From an uncultured Methanosarcinales archaeon (GTDB taxonomy: Archaea; Nanobdellota; Nanobdellia; Woesearchaeales; GW2011-AR9), in NCBI GenBank assembly GCA_964434885.1, contig CAYSWQ010000003.1, positions 6,882 to 70,881 on the forward strand: a stretch of 64,000 nucleotides of DNA, given 5' to 3'. Made by a program: the position numbers and the translations under genes. Within the stretch, counting starts at the first letter, position 1. Each line of letters starts with the position of its first letter. The notes below the pieces were generated by a model that worked only from the letters and a program-made list of their open reading frames with translations, did not search any database and was not told the origin of the DNA. This document shows, one piece after another, positions 17,074 to 43,590 of the stretch.

Positions 17074-17076
17074 TTT

Positions 17077-18439: not shown

Positions 18440-18454
18440 TTTGATAAATCTTAA

Positions 18455-19267: not shown

Positions 19268-19592
19268 AATCTTTGTTAAGTTCGGTTACTTTTGCATCAG
19301 TAGTAGTAGTACTTGGACAACCAGGGAACTCTTTGTTTTTAGTTGTTCCTGCATCACAAGGACATTTATCAAATAAGTCACCAATATTATCATTGTCATA
19401 ATCTCCTAATGCACTAATTTTTTCTCCTAGGTTTCCATAAGCACCTTCTCCGCCTTTCTGGAACCAAATGATTACTAAAGTAACAACAACAACTGCTAAG
19501 ATTGCTAGAACCAATTGTTGCCAAGTCATGGCTTTTTTATTGAATAACATTTTATCACCATTAATTTTTTTATTTTCCTGCAATATCTCCAC
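19239..19592 (-). CDS. Pilin-like protein with thrombospondin-type-3-like Ca-binding repeat
   Basis: MLFNKKAMTWQQLVLAILAVVVVTLVII. DYDNDNIGDLFDKCPCD. Confidence 0.4.
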   Translation of the reverse strand: MEILQENKKINGDKMLFNKKAMTWQQLVLAILAVVVVTLVIIWFQKGGEGAYGNLGEKISALGDYDNDNIGDLFDKCPCDAGTTKNKEFPGCPSTTTTDAKVTELNKDCDTKKSKQT

Positions 19593-20484: not shown

Positions 20485-20597
20485 CTATCTAACCTCTTAA
20501 TTATAATTAAAGAAGTAGCATATAAAAAACTTGTGTTTGATTTTAATAATTGCATAATCTTTAAATATTATTATTTATCAGTAGTTATTGATTTAAG

Positions 20598-22882: not shown

Positions 22883-23025
22883 TATCTATTTCCTCCAAAC
22901 TTAGAAAGCAAGCCTTGAAGAAAACTACCTAAATCATTATACCAAATAACTACTAAGATTAACAAAACAATTGCTAAAATCATTAAAACTAAAATCCACA
23001 TTTCCATTCCTTTTTTTCCTTTCAT
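22882..23025 (-). CDS. 47-aa single-TM peptide (hand-translated; not in ORF track)
   Basis: MKGKKGMEMWILVLMILAIVLLILVVIWYNDLGSFLQGLLSKFGGNR. TAATG overlap with the downstream gene and ATGA overlap with the upstream one. Confidence 0.3.
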   Translation of the reverse strand: MKGKKGMEMWILVLMILAIVLLILVVIWYNDLGSFLQGLLSKFGGNR

Positions 23026-23168
23026 GGCAATAACCTTCCTCTTAGTTTAAAGATGTAGAATAACAAAGCCAAACCCATAATCACAACCAAAATAATTACC
23101 ACGAGGTAAGTGGTGCTAATGTGTTGGGCCTTGTGGTTGTTAAAAAGAGACTTTAATTGAGTAAACAT
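23022..23168 (-). CDS. 48-aa single-TM peptide (hand-translated; not in ORF track)
   Basis: MFTQLKSLFNNHKAQHISTTYLVVIILVVIMGLALLFYIFKLRGRLLP. Coupled to both neighbours. Confidence 0.3.
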   Translation of the reverse strand: MFTQLKSLFNNHKAQHISTTYLVVIILVVIMGLALLFYIFKLRGRLLP

Positions 23169-23171
23169 TTT

Positions 23172-23513
23172 TCATGTTTTTTTCTTAATGCCCAGACAGC
23201 AAACTGACTTTTTGGTTGTGTCGGTAGAAGGTTTACAAGTGAAAGCAGACGAAAAACGGCATTCGGAAAAACCTACCCCTGCTCCACTACCACAAGCAGC
23301 ACTACATGCTTTACTGGCAGTGTTTGTTCCTTGGGTTGTGCAAAAACCACCTTTACTTTCACAATTAAGTAATCCAGATTCTAAAGTGCCAGTTTTCCCA
23401 GTGAAAATTAAAAGCAAGATTACTAAAACCACCAAAGCAATAATGGCAGTAATAACAATCCAAAAAGTGTTACCTTGGGCTTTCTTCATTTTATTTCCAC
23501 GCGCAAGTAGCAC
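23172..23513 (-). CDS. Archaeal type IV pilin-like protein with Cys-rich C-terminus
   Basis: MKKAQ|GNTFWIVITAIIALVVLVILLLIF. C-terminus CESKGGFCTTQG...CSAACGSG...CCLG. Confidence 0.45.
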   Translation of the reverse strand: MLLARGNKMKKAQGNTFWIVITAIIALVVLVILLLIFTGKTGTLESGLLNCESKGGFCTTQGTNTASKACSAACGSGAGVGFSECRFSSAFTCKPSTDTTKKSVCCLGIKKKT

Positions 23514-23847
23514 TTAAACAATTAGTTTGAGTGGAATAAGCCTTACATCTCGATATTTCTTGTTTAAGTGTGCTAGCAGCAGTATCTTTAGCTGTGTCTG
23601 TCTTTGCTGCACCCATGGCTGTTCTAAACGCATTTTCTTTAGATGTGGTTGGATGACAACTCCCATAATTTATTTTTAATTTAATTAATTCAGCATCACC
23701 AGCTTGACTTACACCAGTCTTAAAAATTCCAATTCTACCTGTAAAAATCATTACTAAAAGCACCAAAACAATTAAAGCGATAGCCGCCACAATTATTACA
23801 TTTAAAGAAAGACCTTGTCCTTTTTTATTAAATCTCATCATCTTCAC
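23491..23847 (-). CDS. Archaeal type IV pilin-like protein
   Basis: MRFNKKGQ|GLSLNVIIVAAIALIVLVLLVMIF. Confidence 0.45.
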   Translation of the reverse strand: MKMMRFNKKGQGLSLNVIIVAAIALIVLVLLVMIFTGRIGIFKTGVSQAGDAELIKLKINYGSCHPTTSKENAFRTAMGAAKTDTAKDTAASTLKQEISRCKAYSTQTNCLSATCAWK

Positions 23848-23988
23848 CTCAATACAAATATATCTTTCTAAAAAAGAATTAATCTATATAAATCTTACCT
23901 TTCGTTTAAGTTTATTTAAGAGAAAGAAGGTAAAAATATATTTAATACTTGTTGTCTAATTTTTTAAACTATGTTTTTAATATTGCTA

Positions 23989-24531
23989 TTAATCACACAA
24001 TTTAAGAATGCTGATTACTTGTCCAGCGTTAGTGGGGAGAGGAAATGCGCCAGAAGAATCTGTGTCTTTCTTGCGACAACCGCGCCCACCTTCGTCTATT
24101 AAATAAATTAATTCAATTTCGTTTTGGTTTTGTAATAAGTAAGATTTAAATTCATATCTTTTGTTGAGTTTTCCTTTTCCAAGAGTTTTATTTAACAAAG
24201 CCCCAATAGTTTTGTTTAAAAAATCACAAGAATGTAAATTATTACATTGATATTCGGAATTTGTGTTTTTGTATAACGCACAATCTTCTAATAACTCATT
24301 TTGAATAAACAAAGGTTCTTTAATGAAATTTCCATAATAATCTTGGTGTTCACAAAGGGCACTGGTTTTCATTAATGCCCCCATCGCACTAGATGCTAAA
24401 AACTCTCGGGCAATTACTTTTTTAGTAGTATCTTCAACTAAAGAAAATTTAGCCATAAACAAAATTCCAAGAGTAGCCAAAATAACAATAATTACTAAGC
24501 CAATTAATTCTATTTGTCCTTTGGAATTCAT
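23989..24531 (-). CDS. Archaeal type IV pilin-like protein
   Basis: MNSKGQ|IELIGLVIIVILATLGILFMA. Confidence 0.45.
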   Translation of the reverse strand: MNSKGQIELIGLVIIVILATLGILFMAKFSLVEDTTKKVIAREFLASSAMGALMKTSALCEHQDYYGNFIKEPLFIQNELLEDCALYKNTNSEYQCNNLHSCDFLNKTIGALLNKTLGKGKLNKRYEFKSYLLQNQNEIELIYLIDEGGRGCRKKDTDSSGAFPLPTNAGQVISILKLCD

Positions 24532-25058
24532 GAAAAAACCTCCACAGTTAACATTCCAAATTTATATTCTCCTTGTTTTTCTTTGCCTTTGACAGAATCT
24601 TTTAAAGTTAATAAGAAATGGGTTGATTCTTTTTGTTTGCTACCAACCAAGGTACCATTAGCTAATTTTACTTTTTTTGGTTTATTATATAATACCCAGC
24701 TCTCATTCCCAGGATAAATTTCTGAAACAGTAATTTTAGTGAATGGAAATAAATCAAAATAATAGTCTCCAAAATTGTTTTTAAATGTTTTTTGTGCTTG
24801 TTTAACTTTCAGAAGATCTAAACAATAGAGTTCTGGTTCTGCTTCTCCACGACTACAAATTAATTCTGGGAGAAAAATAGTTTTAGAAGTTATCTCGACT
24901 GCTTTTTTGCCCATTTTTTCGGCTTGTTTCTCTTGAAAAGCCACTTCACTATATTTAGTGTAAAAAATAATTCCAAAAAGAATTAAGACAAAGAAAATAA
25001 ACATAACTCCAATTGTTTCCATCATCCTCATTTGAGCTTTTTTTGTCTTGTATTTCAT
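24528..25058 (-). CDS. Archaeal type IV pilin-like protein
   Basis: MKYKTKKAQ|MRMMETIGVMFIFFVLILFGIIF. ATGA coupling. Confidence 0.45.
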   Translation of the reverse strand: MKYKTKKAQMRMMETIGVMFIFFVLILFGIIFYTKYSEVAFQEKQAEKMGKKAVEITSKTIFLPELICSRGEAEPELYCLDLLKVKQAQKTFKNNFGDYYFDLFPFTKITVSEIYPGNESWVLYNKPKKVKLANGTLVGSKQKESTHFLLTLKDSVKGKEKQGEYKFGMLTVEVFS

Positions 25059-25083
25059 TTTAGTATTTTAGTTTAAGGTTTAG

Positions 25084-26235
25084 TTAATACAATTGGATAC
25101 AACTTTTTGATTGTAATTCTTTGTTTAATCTTTTCAACTCTTGGGCTGGTTTTAAAACATCTGAACAAGTGGAATAACCACTAACAATACAAGTTGAGGT
25201 GGCACCTTTAATTCTTTGTAATATATTTTGTATGTTGGTGGTTTTCTGTTTGTGTAAAATTAGTTGGCATTCATTTTTATTCTCGGCTGTTGGTTTTTGA
25301 TAATAACTCAAAATCTCTTTTAATTTTCCTCCCACTGAACCAGTGGTCCCACCATAAATTTCATTTAAATATTGCATTCTACGAAAAACTTTCATCATAT
25401 TGCATTGATAGCTTTTCCCATTCTCAGAAAAAATAGCGGCGAATTTAGCAGAATCTGGTTGGTCTCCAAGAGAAATTATTTTAGTAGTATCAATTTTTTC
25501 CCAGAACCGACCTTTCTTTTGATAATAAGTTGCAGTAATCCCTCCAACAAAACTAACAGCAGTAACTTGGGAATCTGCTAGTTTGATTAGTGGAGTGGGA
25601 ACTAATCCTTTATCTTGAATATATGTTCCAACTAAATCAACAATTCTTATTTGGTTAGTTTTTCCAGGAACTAATGTAGTTAAATCTTTAACAAATTCAA
25701 CATTGAAAAAATTTTGAGAAGTTTTCTTTTCTGATTTAATGGCTTTTTCTAATCTATTCCAAAAAGGGCTGGAACTACCCACTACAAAATATTTGTTATT
25801 ACTTGAACTAACAATTAATAAATCCATTATTTTATATGGGAAGTGATACGGTAAAGACCACAACAACAATTTAGTAGTTTGAATATTTTTAGGAGCAAAA
25901 ATAGGTTGTAATTTGGTTGATTTGGAGTTTCTTCCTTTAATTCCAAAGTTAGAAATTCCTTCTTCACATTTGAATTCAAAAACATAATTGGAGAGACCGC
26001 TTGTTTTAATGGAACTCATTGTCTTTTCAGAAACAGAAGCCCCGATTAAGATTGATTCTAAAACATCAACAACATCTCTTTGGAGATCTTCTTCAGCAGC
26101 AGATTTTTGTTTAACAACAATCCCGACAAAAAACATTAAAATTACTGCCCCAGCAATTAAAATATAAACCCAATTAAAAGCAACTTGAACTTGAGCAGAT
26201 TTAGATAACTGAAAAAGATTTTGTTTTGATGACAT
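25084..26235 (-). CDS. Pilin-like/membrane-anchored protein (383 aa)
   Basis: MSSKQNLFQLSKSAQVQVAFNWVYILIAGAVILMFFVGIVV N-terminus. Confidence 0.35.
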   Translation of the reverse strand: MSSKQNLFQLSKSAQVQVAFNWVYILIAGAVILMFFVGIVVKQKSAAEEDLQRDVVDVLESILIGASVSEKTMSSIKTSGLSNYVFEFKCEEGISNFGIKGRNSKSTKLQPIFAPKNIQTTKLLLWSLPYHFPYKIMDLLIVSSSNNKYFVVGSSSPFWNRLEKAIKSEKKTSQNFFNVEFVKDLTTLVPGKTNQIRIVDLVGTYIQDKGLVPTPLIKLADSQVTAVSFVGGITATYYQKKGRFWEKIDTTKIISLGDQPDSAKFAAIFSENGKSYQCNMMKVFRRMQYLNEIYGGTTGSVGGKLKEILSYYQKPTAENKNECQLILHKQKTTNIQNILQRIKGATSTCIVSGYSTCSDVLKPAQELKRLNKELQSKSCIQLY

Positions 26236-26236
26236 T

Positions 26237-26749
26237 TTAAGTGTCTGCAGACAATTCTGTTCTATCTCCTTTTCCTTCTAAGACTAGTTTAAATCTACCT
26301 TTGTTAATAGGTAGGCAAAGATAATCATTAGTCATACTAATCTCATATACTTTAAGGGGAATTTCCGATGCAGGTTTTAAAAATACATTTCGATCTGATT
26401 TGCTCCATCCTCCTCCTTGAGCGGCAGCAGTTTTCCAAGTATCGCAAGCAAAAACACCTAGTTTAGAGAGACAATCTGCAGGTGGTTTTTTACTCAAATC
26501 AATAAAACACACTTGAGAATATTTAGGAGGGAGAGTAAATGTTTTAATTCTAACTGAACCATATTCTGTGTAGATTTTCTTAACATTGGATTCTAGGTCA
26601 GTTTTAAATCTTGTAAATTCAACTTTTTCACCTTTATCTAAAAAATCATTTACTGCCTTGAAACCAAAAATGACAATCAAAGCGAAGGTAATTGCGGCCA
26701 CCATAAAGATAAAGACTTGACCAATAGCCATGGCTTTTTTATTTTTCAT
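26237..26749 (-). CDS. Archaeal type IV pilin-like protein
   Basis: MKNKKAMAIGQVFIFMVAAITFALIVIFG. Start overlaps the giant gene's stop. Confidence 0.45.
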   Translation of the reverse strand: MKNKKAMAIGQVFIFMVAAITFALIVIFGFKAVNDFLDKGEKVEFTRFKTDLESNVKKIYTEYGSVRIKTFTLPPKYSQVCFIDLSKKPPADCLSKLGVFACDTWKTAAAQGGGWSKSDRNVFLKPASEIPLKVYEISMTNDYLCLPINKGRFKLVLEGKGDRTELSADT

Positions 26750-29700
26750 TTTTTCCTCTCATCACTAATTTTTTTTAATTTATCGAAGATGCTTTTGGCT
26801 TCTCCTTTAGAAACTACTTCGTGAACAGGTTTGTCTTGAGTTTTGGTAGCAATGTTTTCTAATTTTGCAAAAACACCTTTTTCTCCGTGTTTTAAACCAG
26901 GCCGAATAGTTTCTTTCTTTTCAACATATTTTTGAGCTAATTGACCCACTCTTTCTTGGTGAGGAATTTCTTTATTTAATAAAGGATTAAGGTGAGGGAT
27001 TGTTTTAGATTCTTGGCTAAATTCTCCAAAAAGCGATTTTCTAACTTGGGTTTTTTCTTTTTTGGCTCTAACTCTTCGTAAACCAAAAATCTTGTGTTTC
27101 CAAGAAGTGATGGTTGGTTTTGGTTTTTGACTAACTGAAGGGGGGGCTGGTCCTCTAAATTTAGCAGGCATTGGTTTTCCTGGACCATGAACAGATTCAT
27201 AATAAAAGACCAAGTAACCACTTCCTCCAAGAACCAAGATAATTCCTAAGGATAAAATTATCCATGCTAACAAACTAGATTTGGAGGTTTTGGTTGTAGT
27301 TTTAGTTGTGGTTGGTTTGGTTGTAGTGGTTGGTTTTTTAGTAATAGTTTTCTTTGGAGCATCAGCATAACAAGGATCATAATATCCAGAATATTCTTCG
27401 TAATTCGAATAATTATCGGTATCATAATCTTCTTTGTCATCTGTTATTCCATCTCCATCAGAATCTTTTTTGAGATAGTCTAAATAACATTTAGTACTTT
27501 GGTCATTATATAATTTTTCCCAAGAATCAGGTAAACCATCTCCATCAGTATCTGCAGAAGATTGGGAAGTTGTGGTTTGTCCAGATGCACATCCAGTTGA
27601 ATCGACATATTTGCCGGCAGTAGTACTGGCACATTTATCACAACTATCTGTAACTCCATCTCCATCAGAATCTTTGAAAGTTATTTTTGTTGTTCTAGTT
27701 TTGTTGTTACCTTTTGGATCAGCAACATAATAACAAATCCATTCAGTTCGTTTTAATGAAATCTTTTGACCATTATAATTAAATGCGGGTTTACAACTAC
27801 CTTCAACAGAACTTTGATAATAATCAAACTTGTCGCAACTTGTTTCGTCAGTACATTTCATCTCTACTTCTACTGCACTACAAGTATCATTAGTTTGAAA
27901 AGAGACAACTGGAGCAGTGACATCTTTATTACATTCAGAATATTTACTATCAACTGCTAAGAAACCATCACTCTCTACTAAAGTTCCAGTGTTTCCGGCT
28001 TTATCAGTTGCTTTTACTTTAATGAAATACTTTCCATTTTTAGTTAATTTGTATTTTATTTTGAAAGGTGAAGTAGCAGCCAAAGAGCCTTTAGAAACTA
28101 TTTTTTTAACAGAGCTATTAGTAACTTCATATAATTCATAATAATAACTAGAGAGGTTTCCTTCATCAGTATAAACATATATCTTTGGAGTATCACTCAA
28201 ACCACAAGAATATTTTTGATCATTGACACTAGTTATTTTTGGTGGGGTTTGATCAACAATAAATTCTATTTTGCCTTCTCTTTTTTCACCCGCAATATTA
28301 CATTTTATTAGATAATAATATTTGCCTTCTGTTAATTTTCCTAAAGAGTGTTGGTGTTTAGTAGAACCAGTAGTTTTGAAAGTAGTGGTATTATATTTAC
28401 AAATTGCTCTCTTGTTAGTTGTTGCTCCTAATTTAACTGCTGTTCCAGAAACATATCCTTTGGGAGAAGTAGAGAGAATATTTCCTTGAACAGAATAATC
28501 TACAGTAAAAGTGATATTTTTTGGTTCAGAAACATTACCTGCTCCATTTTTACATTGAGTAACAAGATTGTATGTTTTTTTAGTCCCACCAAATGAAATT
28601 CTGAACCAAGTGGTGTGTTTGGTATTTAATGTTTTATTATTGACTCCTGGAAAAGGATATATCATGGAGGAATAAGTTGCCTTACCATCATTGTATTTAC
28701 AAATAGTTTTATCGTCGGTCTCAATAAATAAATTAGTGCCTACTCCTTCATTAACAGAAGCTGGTTGAGCATAGGCTTTTTTAATTACTGGTTTGGTGGG
28801 ATCATATTCTAAATTAATTTTCTGAACTGGCCCTAATTTATTACCTAAATCTTTGCACTTAACAAAAATTGTTTTAATTCCTCCTTTTTTGTTGTAGGTA
28901 GAAATAACCTTGCCGGGGAATTTACTTGTTCCATCATTATAATAATAATTTCCTCCAGATTTTGTTTTCTTTAGTTTTTGATGAGAAGGCACTTTTTCAT
29001 AATTAAAAATAGGGTTGAAATCAAAACGACAACTGCTAGTTGGTACTTTGGTGGAAATAACTAAACTGAAATTTGGGTGATAACTAATACCCCATTTTTC
29101 TCCATTATAAGAATAAGGAGTGGGACTGACTAAATTGATTCCAAACCCTTCAATAGATACTTGACCACAATTAGGAGGGGTTTCTTTGTTTCCTCCAGTA
29201 TCTACAGAATAATAACAAACTTGAGTAGATTTATTTAAACTAACTGGTTTAGTGAATTCTTTATATCCGGAAGAAAACTGAGAAGCACAACCAGAACCCA
29301 AACAATAAAAGGTTTTGTTGTAACCAAAACCAGAAACAGAATATTTGAAACTACTAATTTTGGCAGAATCTACAAAAATAGATTTCCAACCTTTAGTAGA
29401 TTGAATTACGGTTCTATTTCCTTCAGTTAAAACTATGTTAGTTTTTGGGCCCGAAATATCAATTTGAAAAATAAAAAAATCTTCTTTAATTTTTTGAGTT
29501 AAAAGATCTTTACAAATGGCTTTGTATGTTCCACTATAATTTCCTGTTTTTAAGGAAAGAGATTTAGTTTTATGTTTTTTATTTGTGGTATCAGCAGTAA
29601 AGTCTGCTACTTTTAAATTTTTGGCGTCGTATAAGCTACAAGTTGCTTTGGTAGCTGTCTTTAATTGGAAATAAGGGGAAGTGGTAGTTATTGGTCCTTT

Positions 29701-32700
29701 TGGATAAATGATATCTATGGCTGGTTCTAAATCAAAAACAAATTGTTTATTTTGAGTATTTTTATTATTGTAATCATCTATACAATTAATAGTTAAGTTG
29801 TAAATTATCCCCGGTAAACTTTTGAAGATGGCTTGTTTATTTTTCTCTTGACGAGTTATTTTTTTGGTTTGTAATGTGCTTTTAGGAAGTAAAGGATCTA
29901 ATTTAAATTCACAACCCATTGGTTCATTGATGCCAGTTAAATAAATTGTTAAATCTGTTTTATCGATTGTAGTAGTATAATTACTTTTGATTTGAAATTG
30001 AGGTTTTTCAGTGTCAATAAAAATAAATTCTTCGCGAACAGTTTCTTGATTAAAATATCTATCTTTAGAATAATATCTGAGGCGATAGGTTTCCCCTTTA
30101 ATGATTTTTCCTTGTAGCGCTTTTACAATATCGGCGGAAGCAATTTCAGTATTTAATTTACCGGGGTATTTTGTCTCTTGGAAAGAAGTACATTTTGGTG
30201 TATTGGATTTAGAATCAGCAAGACAATAACCCAATACCCCTAAGCGGCTTTCATTGTCTGTGCCTTGGAAAGTTAAATTTGTTTGTGATAAAGAAACAAT
30301 TTTTACTTTTCCGGCTGGAAGGATACTTGTAGTTGGAGCCTGATTATCTATTTGACAAAGAGTTGTTTCTCCTGCCGTAAACTGAGAACAATCATCTTTG
30401 CCATCACCATCTCCATCTTTGATGCATCCATGTTCGTCAAACTTTTTTGCTTGACCTTTCCAAACACATTTGCCCCAACCACATTGATCTTTGGAAGAAG
30501 TGATGGTTCCAAGTGAATTTTTTAAAGGTTGATCTCCAACACATTCAGTTTGAGTACTATAAGAATAACAATTGTGAGTTTTGTCTGGTTGAGTACCACA
30601 AGATTTACATTCAGTTAAGTCGTAATAAGAGAAACACCTTCCTAATTGAGAACAAACGGAAGAAGTACAATAATAATTTTCAAAAAGAGAGGAAGAGGCA
30701 CTACAACTTTTACATTGGTCATCTTTTTTATAGTCTTTTTCAACACAATAACCATGGCCAGTTTCTTCCAAGATTGGTAAAGAAAGAATATTTTCAAAAT
30801 TTTTATAGATATTTAACCCCGTGCCAGCTGAAACCCAATTACAAGTAGTACCTAAACAATTATTGATATCACAAGCATCTTTGCTTTGATAATCAAAACA
30901 AGATTTGATGTTAGCACAGCTATCACATTTGTTGACTACGGATTGAGTGTAATCATAATAACAGTAGTTTGTAGGTTCTCCTGATTTAATAGTAGTTGAT
31001 TTAACTCCATAACAAGTTTGACGATTGTAATATAAACCAAAAGGAGTAGCTGCTTGTGGAATCAAACTACATTTTCCAGCATCTTTACATGTGGCAGTAG
31101 TAGAAGTTATTTCAGCACAATAATAAGCACTACCTTTTGTATCTAAAACAGAACAATCTTTAGAAAGGGTTTTTTTATTTTGATTATTACAAGACCACAT
31201 TTTCTTTCTATCTTTTAAATCGTTAGAACAAAAAGTGGCCCATCCTGCTTTTTCTGAATATTGATTCTCACAGATTTGATCTCCCATTGTTACTGAGATT
31301 TTAACAGGGGTAGAAAACCTAGTTTTAACATCAGTATAGACTGCAGTGATTTGATAACTATATTTGCCACCCCATTCTACTTGATCATCTAAATAAGAGA
31401 ACATGGCAGGAGAAGCAGAAAATTGAGCAACTTGTTTGCCATTTTTAAACTTAACAATTTGATAGGCACTAACTTCAGGACAAGGTTTAGTCCATTGTAA
31501 GGAAATTTTCTTAACTCCTTTAATATGATTAGCAGTAAACTTTTCTACACTTTTAGATTGATTTTTTCCACCATAACTACATTGACCAATATATTTAGTA
31601 AGAAGAAGGTCTTGGGTTTTTGTTTCTCCAGATTGTAAATTTATTTTTAATTTCTTTTTCAATTCATAATCCGAATACGTAGCAGAGATTTCTTGCGATC
31701 CAGTAGATAATTCTAATTGGTAATAACCCAAAGGAGAATATTGGGAGTAACTTTTGAATATTCCATTGACAGAAATACTAGCACCATATATTTTTTCATC
31801 TCCAATATTATCTCCATCTTTATCTAACCAAACATAACCTTTAATCCCTTGTAATTTGGTTGTTTCTAAGAGAAAATTTTTCTTGTCGTCTTGTGTTTTG
31901 AGAGTATAACTTTGGTCTTTGGTAGTGTAACCATATTTAGCAAGAGTAAAAATATATTTTTCTTTTGGGACTAGATTTTTAGCAGTGTAAAAACCATTTT
32001 TATCAGATAGAACTGAACCTGATGTAGAGGTGCTTTTCCAAGAAATTAGAACTCTATTAAGTGGTTTGCCATCTTTGTCTTTAACATAACCAGATAGTTG
32101 GGCAGTACCTACTAATTTTTTTAGGGTGAAGTTTAATTCTGTAGTTTGGTTGGTTTTGAGTGTGATTGGTTGATTGATTGTAATATATCCGGATTTTATT
32201 AGTTTGATTAAATGAGTTCCAGGATCATTTTGGAAAGAATAAATTCCAGTTGAAGATGTTGTTTGTGTTTTTCCTTTTAATTCAATTTTAACGCCAGAGA
32301 GAGGGTTTTTGTTTTGGTCGAGTATGGTCCCTTTTAAAGTAACTTGGTTTGTCTTTACTCCACAAGATTGAGAACATTTTGTTGAATCCATTGTGGGGTC
32401 TGTTAGTTTGGTAATCCAAGATTCAAAAGTGGTTAAACCTTCTTTTTTAGCAATATTAAGACAATTCCACTTTGTACCTCCACTTTGTTGATAATAACAA
32501 GTGTTAGAAACTTTACAACACCCAGCAGAACACCAATCATTATAATTTGTTTCAGTTACTTCTTGCCAGCCAGTTTCTTTACCTTTATCTTGTTTTTCAG
32601 CTTCTAACTGACATTCCCCTTGGGTCATGGTTTGACAGTTTACACTACAAGTGATTGATTTACAGGTGGGAATTCCGGAACAATCTTTTCCTGGGTTGAA

Positions 32701-32895
32701 AAAAGAAGTGTATTGTTTAGTTTCTCCAAGGGCTTTGATTTTGTAATCTGCTAGTGCTTTTTCTTCGGTGATTTTCTGACAATAGAGGCTTTTTGAGGAT
32801 TTGGGATAATAATAACATCCATCTAAAGCAAAAGCAGAACTAATTAAAACTAGGAAAATTATAATACTAATTACAGCTACACCTCTTTTTTTCAT
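26746..32895 (-). CDS. Giant (2049 aa) type-I membrane surface protein / putative adhesin. Domain order: signal peptide, N-terminal Cys-rich domain, carboxypeptidase-regulatory-like and other beta-rich domains, thrombospondin-type-3-like Ca-binding repeats, Thr/Lys-rich stalk, TM helix, about 150-aa cytoplasmic tail
   Basis: MKKRGVAVISIIIFLVLISSAFA signal. CSAGCCK and WNCLNIAKKEGLTTF in the N-domain. GVKIELKGKTQTTSSTGIYSF (CarbopepD_reg-like). DSDGDGVTDSCDKC / DTDGDGLPDSW / DSDGDGITDD. TTTKPTTTKTTTKTSK stalk. LLAWIILSLGIILVLGGSGYLVFYY TM. Confidence 0.7.
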   Translation of the reverse strand: MKKRGVAVISIIIFLVLISSAFALDGCYYYPKSSKSLYCQKITEEKALADYKIKALGETKQYTSFFNPGKDCSGIPTCKSITCSVNCQTMTQGECQLEAEKQDKGKETGWQEVTETNYNDWCSAGCCKVSNTCYYQQSGGTKWNCLNIAKKEGLTTFESWITKLTDPTMDSTKCSQSCGVKTNQVTLKGTILDQNKNPLSGVKIELKGKTQTTSSTGIYSFQNDPGTHLIKLIKSGYITINQPITLKTNQTTELNFTLKKLVGTAQLSGYVKDKDGKPLNRVLISWKSTSTSGSVLSDKNGFYTAKNLVPKEKYIFTLAKYGYTTKDQSYTLKTQDDKKNFLLETTKLQGIKGYVWLDKDGDNIGDEKIYGASISVNGIFKSYSQYSPLGYYQLELSTGSQEISATYSDYELKKKLKINLQSGETKTQDLLLTKYIGQCSYGGKNQSKSVEKFTANHIKGVKKISLQWTKPCPEVSAYQIVKFKNGKQVAQFSASPAMFSYLDDQVEWGGKYSYQITAVYTDVKTRFSTPVKISVTMGDQICENQYSEKAGWATFCSNDLKDRKKMWSCNNQNKKTLSKDCSVLDTKGSAYYCAEITSTTATCKDAGKCSLIPQAATPFGLYYNRQTCYGVKSTTIKSGEPTNYCYYDYTQSVVNKCDSCANIKSCFDYQSKDACDINNCLGTTCNWVSAGTGLNIYKNFENILSLPILEETGHGYCVEKDYKKDDQCKSCSASSSLFENYYCTSSVCSQLGRCFSYYDLTECKSCGTQPDKTHNCYSYSTQTECVGDQPLKNSLGTITSSKDQCGWGKCVWKGQAKKFDEHGCIKDGDGDGKDDCSQFTAGETTLCQIDNQAPTTSILPAGKVKIVSLSQTNLTFQGTDNESRLGVLGYCLADSKSNTPKCTSFQETKYPGKLNTEIASADIVKALQGKIIKGETYRLRYYSKDRYFNQETVREEFIFIDTEKPQFQIKSNYTTTIDKTDLTIYLTGINEPMGCEFKLDPLLPKSTLQTKKITRQEKNKQAIFKSLPGIIYNLTINCIDDYNNKNTQNKQFVFDLEPAIDIIYPKGPITTTSPYFQLKTATKATCSLYDAKNLKVADFTADTTNKKHKTKSLSLKTGNYSGTYKAICKDLLTQKIKEDFFIFQIDISGPKTNIVLTEGNRTVIQSTKGWKSIFVDSAKISSFKYSVSGFGYNKTFYCLGSGCASQFSSGYKEFTKPVSLNKSTQVCYYSVDTGGNKETPPNCGQVSIEGFGINLVSPTPYSYNGEKWGISYHPNFSLVISTKVPTSSCRFDFNPIFNYEKVPSHQKLKKTKSGGNYYYNDGTSKFPGKVISTYNKKGGIKTIFVKCKDLGNKLGPVQKINLEYDPTKPVIKKAYAQPASVNEGVGTNLFIETDDKTICKYNDGKATYSSMIYPFPGVNNKTLNTKHTTWFRISFGGTKKTYNLVTQCKNGAGNVSEPKNITFTVDYSVQGNILSTSPKGYVSGTAVKLGATTNKRAICKYNTTTFKTTGSTKHQHSLGKLTEGKYYYLIKCNIAGEKREGKIEFIVDQTPPKITSVNDQKYSCGLSDTPKIYVYTDEGNLSSYYYELYEVTNSSVKKIVSKGSLAATSPFKIKYKLTKNGKYFIKVKATDKAGNTGTLVESDGFLAVDSKYSECNKDVTAPVVSFQTNDTCSAVEVEMKCTDETSCDKFDYYQSSVEGSCKPAFNYNGQKISLKRTEWICYYVADPKGNNKTRTTKITFKDSDGDGVTDSCDKCASTTAGKYVDSTGCASGQTTTSQSSADTDGDGLPDSWEKLYNDQSTKCYLDYLKKDSDGDGITDDKEDYDTDNYSNYEEYSGYYDPCYADAPKKTITKKPTTTTKPTTTKTTTKTSKSSLLAWIILSLGIILVLGGSGYLVFYYESVHGPGKPMPAKFRGPAPPSVSQKPKPTITSWKHKIFGLRRVRAKKEKTQVRKSLFGEFSQESKTIPHLNPLLNKEIPHQERVGQLAQKYVEKKETIRPGLKHGEKGVFAKLENIATKTQDKPVHEVVSKGEAKSIFDKLKKISDERKK

Positions 32896-33020
32896 TTTTT
32901 TCGTTTTAAAAGCTTGATTATAACTTCTTCATAACTCTGCCTGGGATGAATTTTTAATTTATTGAGCGCTTTGACTGTCTCTTTGGAAAGTTTGATAGTA
33001 GTGATTTGTTTTTGTTTCAT
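32892..33020 (-). CDS. 42-aa ribbon-helix-helix (CopG/MetJ-like) DNA-binding protein, translationally coupled (ATGA) to the giant surface protein gene
   Basis: Hand translation MKQKQITTIKLSKETVKALNKLKIHPRQSYEEVIIKLLKRKK. Beta-strand (TTIKLSKET) followed by two helices in RHH register. Not in ORF track. Confidence 0.45.
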   Translation of the reverse strand: MKQKQITTIKLSKETVKALNKLKIHPRQSYEEVIIKLLKRKK

Positions 33021-33042
33021 CTTATTTTAAGCTTATTTCTTA

Positions 33043-33054
33043 TGGTATACCTAA
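33043..33054. promoter_or_regulatory. Palindromic box tGGTATACCtaa (copy 1), about 24 bp upstream of the RHH gene start
   Basis: GGTATACC is a perfect 8-bp palindrome. An identical 12-mer recurs 90 bp further upstream. Confidence 0.35.
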
Positions 33055-33132
33055 GTATCTTTTTGTATATTTATGTATCTTTTATTATATTTTGGTGTCG
33101 TTTGATATGCTTTATTATAATAAAGTATTCTG

Positions 33133-33144
33133 TGGTATACCTAA
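33133..33144. promoter_or_regulatory. Palindromic box tGGTATACCtaa (copy 2)
   Basis: Identical 12-mer to 33043-33054. Both lie in the 300-bp intergenic region ahead of the RHH/giant-protein operon. Confidence 0.35.
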
Positions 33145-33194
33145 AGAATTTAAAAAGGTTTTGGTTGGAGAAAGGACGAGAAAAAATGAAAAAA

Positions 33195-34403
33195 TTACTT
33201 ACGATCAACGATTTCTTTTAAGCGGTGGAAAATGGCTTGGGCTTCTTTTTCACCAATTTTTTTGATTTCTTCGGTTTTTAATTTAGCAATATTTTTTTCA
33301 ACTTCCTGAAAGAAATCTCTCTCTTTTTGGGATTTTTTCCAGTGGGTTTTCTTTAATTCATGGATATGGGCTACTTTTTCTAGTAAATCAACATATGTTT
33401 TTTTGTGGTGGGTTGGTTCACCAAAAATATCAAACAATTCTTTTTTTTTCTTTTCAATGTGATGTTTTCTTTTAATGTGGTGTTCTTCGGGTTTTGAATA
33501 TGAAGGGATCTTAAAAAGTGGTTTTTTAGTAAGGGTTGGTTTTTTTATTTTGGGAATTGGTTGTTTGTTTCTTTGATGAGCTATATATAAGAAGGCAGCA
33601 ATTAGGATTAACACTAATAAGAACCAAAACCACAATCTAGAAGAATTTTTTTTGGGTGTTTGTGTTGAAGTTGATTTAATAGTTGTTTGAGTTTTTGGTT
33701 TTGTTGTGGTTTGTGAAGAAGTTGTTGTTTTTGAAGTAGATGTTAGTTGTGTTATAGTGCTTGCTTGAGAAGATGTTGTTTGGGTAGCTAAACCAGTAGT
33801 TGTTGGTGTTTTTTGAGTTGAAGAAGTAGTTGGTTGTTGAGCAGTTGAAGTTGTTGTTTTTGGTGTTGTGATTGATGAAGTAGGTTTTGCTGTAGTTGAT
33901 GGGTAAGTTGTTGCTTGAGTGGTTGTGCTTTGAGTACATAAAGAACTACAAGCTGTTTTTGTTGTTTTAGAATCAAAATTAAATGTAGTAATACCTTTGT
34001 TTTTAGCAGCGATTTCACAAGACCATTGATTTTTTTGATAAGTACATGATTTTTGATTATTATAAGTGAATTGACAACAACCTGGACTACACCAAGAATA
34101 TTCTTTGCCGCTGGGAATTGGACCACCAAGACATTTACCTTGGTATTGATAATCACAGGTGCTTTTACAATAAATTTCTTGACATTGAGGAAAGTAAATA
34201 GAATTTTCACATTTTTGATTAGAGAAAAAAGATTCTTTAAAATTACAAGTACTATAAGTAGAACATTCATCTTGAGCATCTGTTTTTTCTAAGTCATAAC
34301 AATATAATGCGCTGCTTTTGAAAGTGAAACAACCTTCTTCAGCTAAAATAAAAGGAATTGAGATTAGGAAAAGAATACCAATTATTAAACCTCTTTGATT
34401 CAT
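33195..34403 (-). CDS. Surface protein paralogous to the giant protein: signal peptide, same N-terminal Cys-rich domain, mucin-like Thr/Ser/Gln stalk, TM helix, same conserved cytoplasmic tail
   Basis: N-domain CSPGCCQ and WSCEIAAKNKGITTF match CSAGCCK and WNCLNIAKKEGLTTF of the giant. About 100-aa T/S/Q-rich stalk. TM RLWFWFLLVLILIAAFLYIAH. C-terminus EKEAQAIFHRLKEIVDRK against EAKSIFDKLKKISDERKK in the giant. Confidence 0.6.
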   Translation of the reverse strand: MNQRGLIIGILFLISIPFILAEEGCFTFKSSALYCYDLEKTDAQDECSTYSTCNFKESFFSNQKCENSIYFPQCQEIYCKSTCDYQYQGKCLGGPIPSGKEYSWCSPGCCQFTYNNQKSCTYQKNQWSCEIAAKNKGITTFNFDSKTTKTACSSLCTQSTTTQATTYPSTTAKPTSSITTPKTTTSTAQQPTTSSTQKTPTTTGLATQTTSSQASTITQLTSTSKTTTSSQTTTKPKTQTTIKSTSTQTPKKNSSRLWFWFLLVLILIAAFLYIAHQRNKQPIPKIKKPTLTKKPLFKIPSYSKPEEHHIKRKHHIEKKKKELFDIFGEPTHHKKTYVDLLEKVAHIHELKKTHWKKSQKERDFFQEVEKNIAKLKTEEIKKIGEKEAQAIFHRLKEIVDRK

Positions 34404-35097: not shown

Positions 35098-38000
35098 ATG
35101 AATATAAAAAGAGGGATGTGGTTTATCGTATTAATAGTTCTAGTTATTTTTTTGAGTGGAATTGTTTTTGGAGCTACTTGTAAAACAGGAGAAACAGATT
35201 GTAGTGGAACTTGTGTAGATATCAAAACAAGTTCAAGTAATTGTGGTGCTTGTGGTACTGCTTGTAAAACAGGAGAGTCTTGTTCTAGTGGAAAATGTGT
35301 AACAAGTAGTAGTGGAAATACCTGTGATTCAGATAGTGAATGTGGAAAAGGAAGTAATTGTGTGGCAGGAGTGTGTAAAGCTAAAAGTGCTGGAACTACT
35401 AATTCAGGAAAGTTGCCTGTAAATACAGATCGAACTCAGGTATTGGGAGCAAATGTTGAGGCCCCAGCTGCATTATCTGCGTGTGATTATGAGAATGAAG
35501 GAGATCATTTGGATTGTTTTAGAGACGCATCTCCTGCTGGTTCTTATTTATATGGAGGTAGTGGATATGTTGGGATAGATGATTCTGATAGAGCAGGAAT
35601 TGTATTGAAACCAAAAGGAATTGATGCAGGAGATTGTACATTGGCAAGTGTAATGCTTAATAAAAAACAACCAGGAGCAAAAGGGTGTAAAATTGTAATA
35701 GTTGAAGATGATTCAGCAGAGGTTGTGGATGATGATGATGGGGCAATGGGAGAAGTTAAAAAAGGGTTTGTTTTAAGTTATGATTATGATCGTGTAGTAT
35801 CATCACAAAAAAAATATGATGAATTTATTGAAATATATGGTCAATTTGAATTCACTAGGGTGCTTTGTGATGCTGATGATGCGAGAGATGCTCTTGAAGA
35901 AGCATATTTTCAAACAGAATTTCCATATATTTGTGCGGATGATGTTTATTGGCATAAATGTGAGACCAAAGGAAAGATAACTTGGGCCAATGATTATTTA
36001 TATAATTGTACTGACGACGAAAATCTTAATTTATATTGGGATATTAGAGGTATTGATAAAGATCACGATGGTTATACTGATGATAAAGATTGTGCTGATG
36101 ATCCTCATGGAGAAGGAATGCAATTAGTTGGTTGTCCAACAGATTTAAGTAAAGAAGTATGTGATCCAGTAAAACATTCTCGTTGTGCAATTTGTATTAA
36201 TCCAGGAAGACCAGAAACGTGTGGAGATGGATTAAATAATGATTGTGATTTAGGGAAAAAATCATTAAAACAATTAGATGGTCTTACTAAAGATAATTGT
36301 CATTTAAATAGATATGCTTGTGAAAAGAAACAAGGGATTGATAAAGATGGAATAGAATATGGTCCTACTCACACCAATATTTTTGGAGAAACATTATCTT
36401 GGAAGGAAGTAAAAAATTCTAAAGGGAAAGATGGATATTGTTGTGGTTTTGAAGGGGCCAAAGATTTAGGGAAAATTGCTACTGGAAAAGAAGGTAATTT
36501 TATTTGTTTGAATCGGAACAAACAACTAACTGGAAGTGCCACTGGAAAAATTCCTGGATGGGATACTAAAATTTGTGGAGATACTTGGTGTTGGATTTGG
36601 GCTACTGGTGCTGCTGCTTTTCAAATAACAACAGTTAAAAAACCAGGAGAGCAGCCATATGATATTGTTTCCAATAATAAAGAATGGCATGAATGTAAAG
36701 CCAACTTAAAAGATCAGAAATTACCTTTTACTCTTTCAAAAAGCAAAACATTAGATTATGAGTGGTTAGAAAAAATTACTAATAGATTTAGGTGTTATCA
36801 AGAAGGAAATCATTGGTCTTGGACAGAATGCTATGGGAAAAATGATAAACCCCAAAATAAGAATGCTAAAGGAAGAGTAGCAGGAGATGGTGTTTATTCT
36901 CTTTTTATTGATGTTAAAGGAGAAAAAATAGGTTCAACAATTGAATTAAAATCAAGTGATTATTCTTTATTTTATGGAAAAAATTATGCTTATGATTTTA
37001 GTGGATATGATAATTTGGAATTTATGTTAAGGTTTGTAGATAAAAGTGGAAAACCAGTTGGAAAAGATAAATTAACTTTGCCGGCGAATGTAAGGATGTT
37101 AATTTATGGACCAAAACAAGTAGATGAAAAAGGAAAAACTTCTGATTTATTATATCTAGATCAAAATGTTTTAGGTTATGTAATAAATGGTCCTCATTTT
37201 AGTGATCAAAATTGGATGCATGTAAAAGTTCCAATTCTCAACTTAAAAGGAGTTCAAAGTATTATTTTAAAAAGTGCTCGTGAACAAGACAAGATTGCAG
37301 TAAAAAATGTTTATTTGAGTAAAGGAAATTCTTCTTTAACTCCTTTATGTTCGGGTAAAGATACTAGAGATTATAACTCATGGATAAGTAATATTGATCA
37401 AGCTGATAAAACCAATCCCATTACAGGAGAAGAAATTTGTAAAGATCATTATGGTGCAAATTCTTGGTTAGGTAGTTATGGGAAAAAAGAAGTGGAAACA
37501 ATTACAGCTAGTTGTTGTGGAAATAGTCCAAAAGAATATTATGGAAAAAATTCGAAGAACAATTATGGTTGTTGGAATTCTCAATCAATTAAACCCGGAG
37601 CAACAATAATGAATACTAAATTTACTGTAATTTCTCAAGAAACACAAGTGGAAATGAATTATCCAGAGATTAGTTTTGATTATGTTTTGGAAGTAGAAAA
37701 CCCACTAAGTAACCAAGAAGTGCTTAGTGTATCTACAGAACCAAAAACAGATTGTGATAAAAGTAAAAAAGATAAGATTGCAATTTATAAAGGATATATT
37801 TACAAATGTAGTGGATTACAATGGAAAAGAACAGAAGATAGAATATTGGATTATAATTTACAATCCAAAAAAGTTGATGAAGATATAAAAAAATTAGCTC
37901 AAAAACAAACAAAAACAGATAAAATAAGTATTACTTCTGGACCAATTAAACTTTTGAATTGGAGTGGTGAAATTAAAAATGTGGTTCCTTTTATTAATAT

Positions 38001-43466: not shown

Positions 43467-43564
43467 TTTGATTCACCTCTTTTTGAATATCTTAATTAAA
43501 TTTTAAAAATATATAAATCTATCGTTAAGTTGAGAATAAAAAAGTTTGTTATGTTGGATATGAG

Positions 43565-43590
43565 ACCCCTTGATTTCCTATGGAGAAGGT
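43565..43590 (+). promoter_or_regulatory. ORB-like origin recognition box 1 (gaCCCcTTgATTTCCTATGGagaagg)
   Basis: Core TTCCTATGGA resembles the mini-ORB TTCCAGTGGAAA. G/C-rich in an AT-rich context. Confidence 0.5.

What the first reader, a model, noticed from the sequence alone, without database searches (positions are those of the whole stretch)
26746..34403. Two paralogous type-I surface proteins (2049 aa and 402 aa) share both an N-terminal Cys-rich ectodomain and a conserved cytoplasmic tail
Proteins 26746..32895 and 33195..34403 align at the N-terminus: GC..SS.LYC, CSAGCCK against CSPGCCQ, WNCLNIAKKEGLTTF against WSCEIAAKNKGITTF. After unrelated middle regions (giant beta-rich body against mucin-like T/S/Q stalk) and a single TM helix, they align again in the last roughly 80 cytoplasmic residues: LFGEF against LFDIFGE, KYVEKKET against EKVAHIHELKKT, EAKSIFDKLKKISDERKK against EKEAQAIFHRLKEIVDRK. 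A conserved cytoplasmic tail on otherwise divergent surface proteins implies a shared intracellular partner for sorting, anchoring or signalling that I cannot assign to any described system.
Basis: seen in the sequence. Interest (0 to 1): 0.65.

Follow-up and report, generated by a model that had tools for sequence, protein, structure and literature searches.

The report
Paired archaeal surface proteins sharing head and tail
Two neighbouring genes of an uncultivated Woesearchaeota-type (DPANN) archaeon encode a giant and a small membrane-anchored surface protein that really do share a new cysteine-rich outer domain and a new folded cytoplasmic tail domain, and the pair sits at the head of a conserved pilin-like gene cluster whose function is unknown.

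Summary
On the minus strand, A (26746-32895, 2049 aa) and B (33195-34403, 402 aa) are paralogs. The N-terminal similarity is clear pairwise (E 6e-12, shuffle z 12.6). The tail similarity is borderline pairwise, and single-family HMMs miss it. Tails-only profile-profile comparison is decisive: 97% probability, E 1e-10, score 63 against at most 36 in 400 column or block shuffles.

An exhaustive profile search of 1.84 billion proteins finds the tail in only 120 clusters, always at the extreme C-terminus. The complete proteins among them fall into two classes, about 2000-2300 aa and about 340-410 aa. AlphaFold gives a confident disulfide-rich head (pLDDT 91) and a compact helical tail domain (pLDDT 89-96). 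Neither matches Pfam, NCBIfam or the PDB.

In about 25 Woesearchaeota/Nanoarchaeota loci the pair sits in fixed order ahead of roughly 12 conserved families with type IV pilin-like N-termini. A overlaps the first of them. Some lineages keep only TM plus tail in the small paralog.

The tail is therefore not a general sorting signal. It is a dedicated cytoplasmic module of one apparatus, and its partner is unknown. I rate it a new variant of the known pilin-locus adhesin theme, of moderate interest.

The parts
33195..34403 (-). Gene B, small paralog (402 aa): signal peptide, Cys-rich head, T/S/Q-rich stalk, TM helix, cytoplasmic tail
   Evidence: ORF. Orthologs P0001-P0010 conserve both the head and the tail. 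No Pfam, NCBIfam or PHROG family matches.
33930..34340 (-). B head domain (aa 22-158, 16 Cys)
   Evidence: Aligns to the A head at E 6e-12. 13 Cys columns are invariant across 50 sequences of both families.
33639..33929 (-). B low-complexity stalk (aa 159-255, 60% T+S)
   Evidence: Composition. This is the least conserved region, with mean pairwise identity 0.09. In orthologs it is acidic rather than T-rich.
33576..33638 (-). B transmembrane helix (aa 256-276)
   Evidence: Hydrophobicity scan.
33198..33575 (-). B cytoplasmic tail (aa 277-402). Motifs: LFxxFG, YVDLLEKVA..HELKK, E(R/E)DxFxEVE, EAxxIFxRLKxI
   Evidence: Conserved in the B family. Profile-profile match to the A-family tail at 97% probability, E 1e-10.
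32892..33020 (-). Small ribbon-helix-helix ORF (42 aa, DUF7557) between B and A. Its stop codon overlaps the ATG of A.
   Evidence: Sequence. Pfam DUF7557 scores 30.3 bits against a cut-off of 25. It is present only in this species and in L003/L004, and absent from the 22 GTDB loci.
33043..33144 (-). Two exact copies of TTAGGTATACCA (palindromic core GGTATACC), 90 nt apart, upstream of the RHH ORF
   Evidence: One search finds 2 matches where 0 are expected by chance. A role as operator is inferred only.
26746..32895 (-). Gene A, giant paralog (2049 aa)
   Evidence: ORF. Pfam finds CarboxypepD_reg x2 (E 2e-25), Big_13, PEGA and TSP3_bac. Orthologs P0011-P0018 are 39-42% identical over the full length.
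32356..32826 (-). A head domain (aa 24-180, 14 Cys)
   Evidence: AF2 model of aa 24-185 has pLDDT 91 and pTM 0.80, with an alpha/beta fold. Foldseek finds no PDB match at E below 1.
27361..32355 (-). A body (aa 181-1845): beta-rich and Cys-rich domains, then TSP3-like acidic repeats. Absent from B.
   Evidence: Pfam hits. Conservation profile. phmmer finds no PDB sequence relative.
27199..27360 (-). A T-rich stalk (aa 1846-1873) and TM helix (aa 1874-1899, with the LGGxGYLxYYY motif)
   Evidence: The TM helix is the most conserved of the 14 regions compared in the giant family, at 0.55 against 0.36 overall; two 50-residue windows of the body reach 0.53-0.57.
26749..27198 (-). A cytoplasmic tail (aa 1900-2049): disordered linker, long basic helix, then a compact helical C-domain carrying two copies of E-[EA]-K-x-I-F-x-K-L-x-x-I
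   Evidence: AF2 gives pLDDT 89-96 for the last ~70 residues. The C-domain has identity 0.49. The internal repeat scores z 7.7. No PDB fold or sequence match.
23989..26749 (-). Four pilin-like ORFs (170, 383, 176 and 180 aa; families 1-4) directly downstream of A. Junctions: 4-nt overlap, 1-nt gap, 25-nt gap, 4-nt overlap.
   Evidence: ORFs. These families lie immediately downstream of the giant gene in 22-24 of 25 loci. They have [KR][GAS]-hydrophobic N-termini.
16273..23847 (-). Ten further ORFs with class-III-like N-termini (families 5, 7-12)
   Evidence: Sequences. Their order is conserved across Woesearchaeota loci. N-terminal motifs. No Pfam hits.
35098..40437 (+). 1779-aa secreted Cys-rich protein (family 13). 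It neighbours the cluster in other genomes but is inverted here.
   Evidence: (weak Stig1 hit).

Best explanation
A and B are ancient paralogs. Each is a single-pass type-I membrane protein built from the same modules: a Sec-type signal peptide, a novel disulfide-rich head domain, a low-complexity stalk, one TM helix, and a novel cytoplasmic tail. The tail consists of a basic helix followed by a ~70-residue helical bundle made of two repeats. A differs from B only by a ~1650-residue beta-rich body inserted between head and stalk.

The two genes lead a conserved Woesearchaeota gene cluster, and A is translationally coupled to four type IV pilin-like genes. About ten more pilin-like genes follow.

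Inferred mechanism: A and B are the membrane-anchored subunits of one cell-surface (probably cell- or host-contact) apparatus. The head is presented distally. The folded tail docks both proteins to the same site on the cytoplasmic face. That site could be each other, or the assembly machinery of the pilin-like system. Either way, the external structure would be tied to an internal component.

Shown: homology of the modules, the topology features, the restriction of the tail to two families, the synteny, and the conservation. Inferred: physical association of A and B, and the identity and role of the tail's partner.
For: - Head homology.
- Tail homology with shuffle controls.
- Both modules are conserved in each family.
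- The tail is found in only 120 of 1.84e9 representative proteins and always ends at or within about 15 residues of the C-terminus. Among the full-length hits there are 47 giants and 10 small proteins with the head. The giants that miss the head HMM still show GC..LYC and CxPGCC motifs.
- The tail C-domain (identity 0.49) and the TM helix (0.55) are among the most conserved parts of the giant, against 0.36 overall and 0.28 for the head.
- AF2 predicts folded modules: head pLDDT 91, tail C-domain pLDDT 89-96.
- Topology: 74 and 16 Cys outside, 0 Cys in the tails, tails net +19 and +16.
- Synteny: the small gene lies directly upstream of the giant in about 20 of 24 evaluable loci, followed by families 1-4 and then 5, 7-12 in fixed order.
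- Gene junctions fit co-translation.
- In L008, L009, L015 and L029 the small paralog keeps only TM plus tail. This points to the tail as its conserved business end.
Against: - No partner was identified. No cytosolic protein, ATPase or platform gene lies in the cluster.
- Tail homology is not detectable by single-family HMMs, so it rests on profile-profile comparison plus colinearity.
- Two related MAGs (L014, L022) have no small paralog at this position. B may therefore not be obligatory, or it may lie elsewhere in those genomes.
- Several B orthologs have strongly diverged tails, with no tail-HMM hit at 1e-4.
- The N-termini (KKRG followed by a hydrophobic stretch) cannot be formally told apart from class III signals with these tools.
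- The AF2 tail model has a low global pTM (0.47).
Confidence: 0.5

Rival explanations
1. The tails, together with the TM helices, bind each other. A and B would form a hetero-oligomer, or homo-oligomers, through the repeated amphipathic helices. No third cytoplasmic partner would exist, and B would act as a small accessory subunit of A.
For: - The genes are adjacent and their co-occurrence is conserved.
- Tail-only versions of B are retained in some lineages.
- The TM helix of A is very strongly conserved (0.55).
- The internal two-helix repeat is a typical packing surface.
Against: - L014 and L022 lack B next to A.
- The B tail and TM helix are much less conserved than those of A. That is unexpected for an obligate co-evolving interface.
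- No complex prediction could be run.
Confidence: 0.25
2. A is a PilY1-like priming or tip adhesin of a type IV filament. The four co-translated pilin-like proteins would be its minor-pilin complex. The tail would be the handle by which the cytoplasmic ATPase or platform recognises the priming complex.
For: - The operon layout, with a giant non-pilin gene followed by four pilin-like genes in 22-24 of 25 loci, mirrors bacterial fimU-pilVWXY1 (the bacterial operon is from my own knowledge).
- Archaeal type IV filament loci are reported to carry large adhesin-like proteins, including a remote PilY homolog (bioRxiv 10.64898/2026.04.22.720090; PMC6393860).
Against: - A has no detectable PilY1/PilC domain.
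- It is anchored by a C-terminal TM helix, which does not fit a position on the tip of an extended filament.
- No ATPase or platform gene lies within 10 kb in any locus.
Confidence: 0.15
3. The tail is a general C-terminal sorting or anchoring signal, like PGF-CTERM with archaeosortase or LPXTG with sortase, and is read by a housekeeping machine.
For: It is C-terminal, follows a TM helix, and is basic.
Against: - Such signals mark many unrelated cargo proteins per genome. This tail marks only two paralogous families in 1.84e9 proteins, and only two ORFs in this window.
- It is 125-170 aa long with a predicted folded domain, not a short basic stub.
- There is no PGF-type motif before the TM helix.
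Confidence: 0.04
4. The tail similarity is a compositional artefact of K/E-rich helical sequence.
For: Composition-corrected tblastn and single-family HMMs fail to link the two tails.
Against: - The profile-profile score of 63 compares with at most 20 for column shuffles, at most 36 for block shuffles, and 12.7 for the reversed profile.
- The match is colinear, with four motifs in the same order and ending at both C-termini.
- F, F, F, E-A, F and L are invariant across both families.
Confidence: 0.02
5. The tail is a signalling device. Either it sequesters the small RHH regulator encoded between B and A, or its C-terminal helix acts as a MIM1-like motif for a Vps4/CdvC-type ATPase.
For: - The RHH ORF overlaps the start of A, and two palindromic repeats lie upstream.
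- The terminal helix IFxKLxxI resembles the hydrophobic core of the MIM1 motif LxxRLxxL. This resemblance comes from my own knowledge and was not tested.
Against: - The RHH ORF is absent from all 22 GTDB loci that carry the pair.
- The acidic first position of MIM1 is not matched.
- No MIT-domain protein was looked for or found.
Confidence: 0.04

Closest known systems
Large adhesin-like proteins encoded in archaeal type IV filament (TFF/T4P) loci, including DPANN 'dark matter' pilin islands (PMC6393860; bioRxiv 10.64898/2026.04.22.720090)
   Same: A giant Ig-like or beta-rich surface protein is encoded next to many fast-evolving proteins with class-III-type N-termini. The loci are largely without Pfam annotation.
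   Different: - Here the giant protein has a C-terminal TM anchor and a folded cytoplasmic domain.
- It has a small paralog that shares head and tail.
- No ATPase or platform gene is adjacent.
- Neither shared module belongs to a described family.
Bacterial minor-pilin/PilY1 operon (fimU-pilVWXY1E) and the T2SS pseudopilus tip complex
   Same: One large non-pilin protein is encoded with about four pilin-like proteins in one operon.
   Different: - PilY1 is not membrane-anchored and has a beta-propeller (Pfam Neisseria_PilC). No such domain is detected in A.
- This is an analogy only, drawn from my own knowledge.
Mycoplasma adhesin pairs (M. genitalium P140/P110, M. pneumoniae P1/P40-P90)
   Same: Wall-less, host-dependent cells carry two co-encoded, structurally related type-I adhesins. 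Each has a large ectodomain, one TM helix and a cytoplasmic tail tied to an internal structure.
   Different: - There is no sequence or fold relationship, and the domain of life differs.
- Here the size asymmetry is extreme (2049 against 402 aa).
- This is an analogy from my own knowledge.
Archaeal S-layer glycoproteins with a Thr-rich stalk and C-terminal anchor (Haloferax SLG/PGF-CTERM) and the SlaA/SlaB large-plus-small pair
   Same: Beta-sandwich ectodomains are followed by a Thr-rich, probably glycosylated stalk just outside a C-terminal TM helix. The large and small genes are adjacent.
   Different: - S-layer anchors have no long folded cytoplasmic domain.
- The PGF-CTERM motif is absent.
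- SlaA and SlaB are not paralogs that share termini.
Eukaryotic integrin alpha/beta heterodimers
   Same: These are paired type-I receptors whose short conserved cytoplasmic tails recruit intracellular adaptors.
   Different: There is no homology. The comparison is purely conceptual.

Membership tests
Pfam CarboxypepD_reg (PF13620) containing surface proteins | Match to the domain model above the gathering score | tested here: met
   A matches at 89.2 bits against a cut-off of 32.3, in two stretches at aa 186-260 and beyond. B has no match.
PGF-CTERM / archaeosortase-type sorting signal | Signature motif, then a TM helix, then only a few basic residues at the extreme C-terminus | tested here: not met
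   The tails after the TM helix are 150 aa (A) and 126 aa (B). No PGF motif lies ahead of the TM helix.
PGF-CTERM / archaeosortase-type sorting signal | The signal is shared by many unrelated cargo proteins | tested here: not met
   Only two paralogous families carry the tail among 1.84e9 representative proteins.
Archaeal type IV pilins (class III signal peptide) | [KR][GAS] cleavage site followed by a hydrophobic helix of at least ~20 residues that continues into the mature protein, with no C-terminal anchor | tested here: inconclusive
   A and B start with KKRG or QRG followed by 16-19 hydrophobic residues. An AxA-like site then comes immediately before the first Cys strand (AFA|LDGC, ILA|EEGC), and both proteins have a C-terminal TM helix. 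This reads as a Sec signal, but no cleavage predictor was available. The 14 downstream ORFs do fit the pilin pattern, although they match no Pfam or NCBIfam pilin model.
PilY1/PilC tip adhesins | C-terminal beta-propeller domain (Pfam Neisseria_PilC) | tested here: not met
   No such Pfam hit in A. phmmer finds no PDB relative.
PilY1/PilC tip adhesins | Encoded in one operon with core minor pilins | tested here: met
   A is followed by four pilin-like genes with overlapping or near-abutting junctions. This holds in 22-24 of 25 loci.
ESCRT-III MIM1 motif | (D/E)xxLxxRLxxL(K/R) at the C-terminus, binding an MIT domain | tested here: inconclusive
   By eye, the consensus EAKDIFxKLKxIS fits the I/K-L/I core but not the acidic first position or the basic last position. 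The presence of an MIT-domain partner was not tested.
DUF7557 ribbon-helix-helix proteins (the ORF between B and A) | Match above the Pfam gathering score | tested here: met
   30.3 bits against a cut-off of 25.
Any described domain family, for the shared head and the shared tail | Significant match in Pfam, NCBIfam, PHROGs, PDB sequences or PDB folds | tested here: not met
   - No hits for B in Pfam, NCBIfam or PHROGs.
- The tail profile against PDB sequences gives a best E of 0.17.
- Foldseek against the PDB gives a best E of 1.4 for the head and 2.3 for the tail.

The most novel reading that the evidence does not exclude
The tail is a dedicated transmembrane coupling module. Through it, a giant adhesin and its small paralog would be mechanically or allosterically linked to a cytoplasmic machine, such as the ATPase or platform of the pilin-like system or a cytoskeletal or division protein. 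Contact with a host cell at the disulfide-rich head would then be transmitted inward, or assembly would be driven outward. This would be an integrin- or mycoplasma-Nap-like outside-in/inside-out link in an episymbiotic DPANN archaeon, forming part of a previously undescribed ~25-30 kb, roughly 18-gene host-contact apparatus conserved across Woesearchaeota.
Probability: 0.15. Interest if true: 0.8.

Novelty: new variant of a known kind. Interest (0 to 1): 0.5.

Why it matters
DPANN archaea are thought to live attached to other cells, yet the molecules that make and regulate that contact are almost unknown, especially in the very widespread Woesearchaeota.

This work defines two new, confidently folded domains: a roughly 8-disulfide head and a two-repeat cytoplasmic helical domain. 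It shows that they always travel together on a giant and a small membrane protein. It also places the pair at the head of a strictly syntenic cluster of about a dozen pilin-like families.

The cytoplasmic domain and the TM helix are among the most conserved parts of a 2000-residue surface protein. That is a concrete handle for experiments, for example using the tail as bait to find the intracellular side of the apparatus.

If the partner turns out to be trivial, or the tails simply self-associate, the result is still a useful annotation of a conserved 'dark matter' island. It would not then be a new principle.

Tried and rejected
- Pairwise and single-family tests of the tail were too weak alone. 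This covers tblastn with composition correction, the B-family HMM against A (E 0.04-0.15) and the A-family HMM against B (no hit). They were replaced by profile-profile comparison with shuffle controls.
- Looking for further copies of either module in the window found none.
- Pfam, NCBIfam, PHROGs and PDB-sequence searches found nothing for the shared modules.
- The head-domain profile search in the 5.8-billion word-indexed database scored only 557 candidates and returned 4 fragments. It is uninformative about other architectures.
It was redone with the giant-family tail alignment.
- The RHH protein was rejected as a general partner because it is absent from the 22 GTDB loci.
- The MIM1/ESCRT idea was only a partial motif resemblance and was not pursued.
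- Three literature searches were run and two papers read for this pair or its domains. They turned up only general statements about pilin islands and large adhesins in archaeal TFF loci.

Full report
**Setting.** The window is a low-GC (about 31%) archaeal chromosome segment. It carries RNase P p30, RadA, RPA, Orc1/Cdc6, PolD, MCM, TBP, TFE and Hjc. Exact copies of the small protein lie on JGI metagenome contigs of up to 109 kb. Relatives are titled Nanoarchaeota or Candidatus Woesearchaeota MAGs. The organism is therefore a Woesearchaeota-type DPANN archaeon.

**The two ORFs.** Both are on the minus strand: A at 26746-32895 (2049 aa) and B at 33195-34403 (402 aa). Each begins with a basic n-region (KKRG in A, QRG in B). 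This is followed by 16-19 hydrophobic residues and an AxA-like site directly before the first cysteine.
- The ectodomains hold 74 Cys (A) and 16 Cys (B).
- A T-rich stalk precedes a single TM helix in each.
- The tails are 150 and 126 aa, contain no Cys, and carry net charges of +19 and +16.
- A type-I topology is thus well supported by sequence features, although no signal-peptide predictor was available.

**Check of the head similarity.** BLASTP aligns aa 1-178 of A with aa 1-156 of B at 55.5 bits, E 6e-12. Shuffling gives z 12.6. An HMM of B-family heads, built without the window sequence, finds A at E 7e-10. In a 50-sequence alignment of both families, 13 cysteine columns are invariant. 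AlphaFold2 on that alignment gives a confident alpha/beta model (pLDDT 91, pTM 0.80). Foldseek finds no PDB match better than E 1.4.

**Check of the tail similarity.** Pairwise evidence is only suggestive.
- The BLASTP HSP (32 bits, E 1e-4) includes the stalk and the TM helix.
- Tails alone give z 4.2, and the last 60 residues give z 5.1.
- Composition-corrected tblastn finds nothing.
- The B-family HMM scores A only at E 0.04-0.15, although A is the best non-self ORF.
- The A-family HMM misses B.

The family alignments settle the question. Both tails are conserved among orthologs. hhalign of tails only gives 96-97% probability and E 4e-10 to 1e-10, over 86-103 colinear columns that end at both C-termini.

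The real score of 63.3 compares with 12.7 for the reversed profile. Column shuffles give 11.9 +/- 3.1 (max 20.3). Shuffles of 7-column blocks give 22.2 +/- 3.5 (max 36.4).

The shared motifs occur in the same order in both families:
- LFxxF(G)
- [HY][LV]DxL..(A)
- E(E/R)(K/D)xIFxK(L/V)E
- EAKxIFxKLKx(I/L)

**Anatomy of the tail.** AF2 on a 40-sequence alignment predicts these elements in order:
- the TM helix;
- a disordered linker;
- a long basic helix;
- a compact helical domain over the last ~70 residues, with pLDDT 89-96.

Global pTM is 0.47 because the segments are flexibly connected. The last two main helices are an internal repeat, E-[EA]-K-x-I-F-x-K-L-x-x-I, with the copies 27 residues apart. 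Each copy is the other's best match among about 2000 windows of the giant-family profile (z 7.7, with the next best score far lower). The same holds in the small family (z 5.1). No PDB fold or sequence relative was found.

**Distribution.** A profile of both tails was run with HMMER against 1.84 billion representative proteins. It returned only 120 hits at E <= 1e-3, and in every hit the matched stretch ends at or within about 15 residues of the C-terminus.
- 47 hits are full-length giants of 1979-3268 aa.
- 10 are small proteins of about 340-410 aa with the head.
- The rest are mostly shorter proteins without a signal peptide, apparently fragments.
- Every full-length giant has the head. The 12 that miss the HMM threshold still show the GC..LYC and CxPGCC signatures.

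So the head and the tail travel together on two protein families and nowhere else that could be detected.

**Constraint.** Across 53 giants the mean pairwise identity is 0.36 overall. It is 0.55 in the TM helix and 0.49 in the tail C-domain. It is 0.28 in the head and 0.11 in both the stalk and the tail linker. For a surface protein, having the membrane and cytoplasmic parts among its most conserved regions points to specific interactions there.

**Genomic context.** Loci were recovered through exact-protein look-ups and through a GTDB genome scan with the giant-tail alignment. The scan gave 22 loci in Woesearchaeota/Nanoarchaeota MAGs, several of them mislabelled Methanosarcinales. ORF clustering across these loci shows one conserved order:
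- [1700-aa Cys-rich secreted protein] - [~850-aa protein] - [small paralog] - [giant] - families 1, 2, 3, 4, 5, 5, 5, 7, 5, 8, 9, 10, 11, 12.
- All families downstream of the giant, and the ~850-aa family, begin with [KR][GAS] followed by a long hydrophobic stretch. This is the pattern of archaeal class III (type IV pilin-like) signals. None of them matches a Pfam or NCBIfam pilin model.
- In the window, A overlaps family 1 by 4 nt, families 1 and 2 are 1 nt apart, and families 3 and 4 overlap by 4 nt.
- No ATPase, platform protein or evidently cytosolic protein lies inside the cluster.

The small paralog sits directly upstream of the giant in about 20 of 24 evaluable loci. In L008, L009, L015 and L029 it is reduced to an N-terminal TM helix plus the tail. 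In L014 and L022 it is missing at that position. Many B orthologs have diverged tails, but they keep the E(L/F)(L/F)xxFG, FxKLxxL and terminal LKK(I/L)xxKK elements.

**Interpretation.** The shown facts are:
- paralogy of all modules except the body;
- predicted type-I topology;
- folded, unannotated head and tail domains;
- restriction of the tail to two families;
- strong conservation of the TM helix and tail;
- fixed synteny with pilin-like genes.

From these I infer that A and B are the membrane-anchored subunits of one surface apparatus. I also infer that the tail is a dedicated cytoplasmic docking or assembly domain rather than a general sorting tag.

What the tail touches cannot be decided here. 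It could be the other paralog, the assembly machinery of the pilin-like system, or something else. The layout of one giant protein plus four pilin-like genes resembles the bacterial minor-pilin/PilY1 operon. Published surveys note large adhesin-like proteins in archaeal type IV filament loci and unannotated pilin islands in DPANN (PMC6393860; bioRxiv 10.64898/2026.04.22.720090). However, A has no PilY1 domain and is TM-anchored.

The small RHH gene between B and A is lineage-specific, so it is not the general partner. A resemblance of the terminal helix to the ESCRT-III MIM1 core is only partial and was not tested.

The pair is a new variant of a known theme, namely large adhesin-like proteins in archaeal pilin loci. 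What is new is two undescribed domains, a giant/small paralog arrangement, and a conserved folded cytoplasmic domain. I found no description of it in the literature held here.

Interest is moderate at 0.5. This is a clean and testable handle on a conserved DPANN surface machine, but there is as yet no evidence for a new principle.

Noticed in passing
window 32892-33020 (-) and 33043-33054, 33133-33144: A 42-aa ribbon-helix-helix ORF (DUF7557) has a stop codon that overlaps the ATG of the giant gene. Upstream lie two exact TTAGGTATACCA repeats with a palindromic GGTATACC core, 90 nt apart, where 0 are expected by chance. They may be an operator pair. The ORF occurs only in this species and in L003/L004.
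   Followed up: partly
window 16273-26749 (-): Fourteen consecutive ORFs have class-III (type IV pilin-like) N-termini. They fall into about 12 families that keep the same order across roughly 25 Woesearchaeota loci. None is annotated in Pfam or NCBIfam, and no ATPase or platform gene is nearby.
   Followed up: partly
window 35098-40437 (+); L001 476-5578; L014 126-1325: A 1700-1800-aa secreted Cys-rich protein (weak Stig1 hit) ends in a conserved ...[FW]WPQ[LM]T[GA]xLR[VI]G motif. It neighbours the cluster in other genomes but is inverted here, next to RNase P p30.
   Followed up: no
window 43300-44360: A very AT-rich intergenic region (GC 0.21-0.24) lies upstream of orc1/cdc6 (44363-45565). 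It contains inverted copies of TTCCATAGGAAAT-like elements (43568-43584, 44157-44190, 44254-44287). This is probably the replication origin with ORB-like boxes.
   Followed up: partly
window 244-3879 (-): A TrbC/VirB2-type T4SS pilin (2322-2645) sits between an unannotated 704-aa ORF and a C5 cytosine methyltransferase (2950-3879). This could be a remnant of a conjugative or integrated element in a DPANN genome.
   Followed up: no
window 26749-26961 (-), A aa 1979-2049; B aa 360-402: The tail C-domain is an internal duplication. The helix motif E-[EA]-K-x-I-F-x-K-L-x-x-I occurs twice, 27 residues apart, in both families (z 7.7 and 5.1).
   Followed up: yes
L008 3138-3749, L009 3350-3931, L015 3472-3969, L029 3201-3770; L014 and L022: In some MAGs the small paralog has lost its whole ectodomain and is only an N-terminal TM helix plus the tail (165-203 aa). 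In two MAGs no small paralog lies upstream of the giant.
   Followed up: partly
window 27199-27276 (-), A aa 1874-1899: The TM helix of the giant carries a strongly conserved LGGxGYL(V/I)YYY motif. It is the most conserved of the 14 regions compared in the protein (identity 0.55), which suggests a specific intramembrane contact.
   Followed up: no
window 7464-8585 (-) and 56789-57808 (+): Two separate class-I Trp/Tyr-type tRNA synthetase genes (Pfam tRNA-synt_1b) lie in one 64-kb window. They are presumably TrpRS and TyrRS, but this was not examined.
   Followed up: no
loci L009, L011, L012, L017, L019, L022, L029: Several GTDB-listed MAGs that carry this Woesearchaeota-specific cluster are titled 'uncultured Methanosarcinales archaeon'. 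This is probably a taxonomic mislabel in the records.
   Followed up: no
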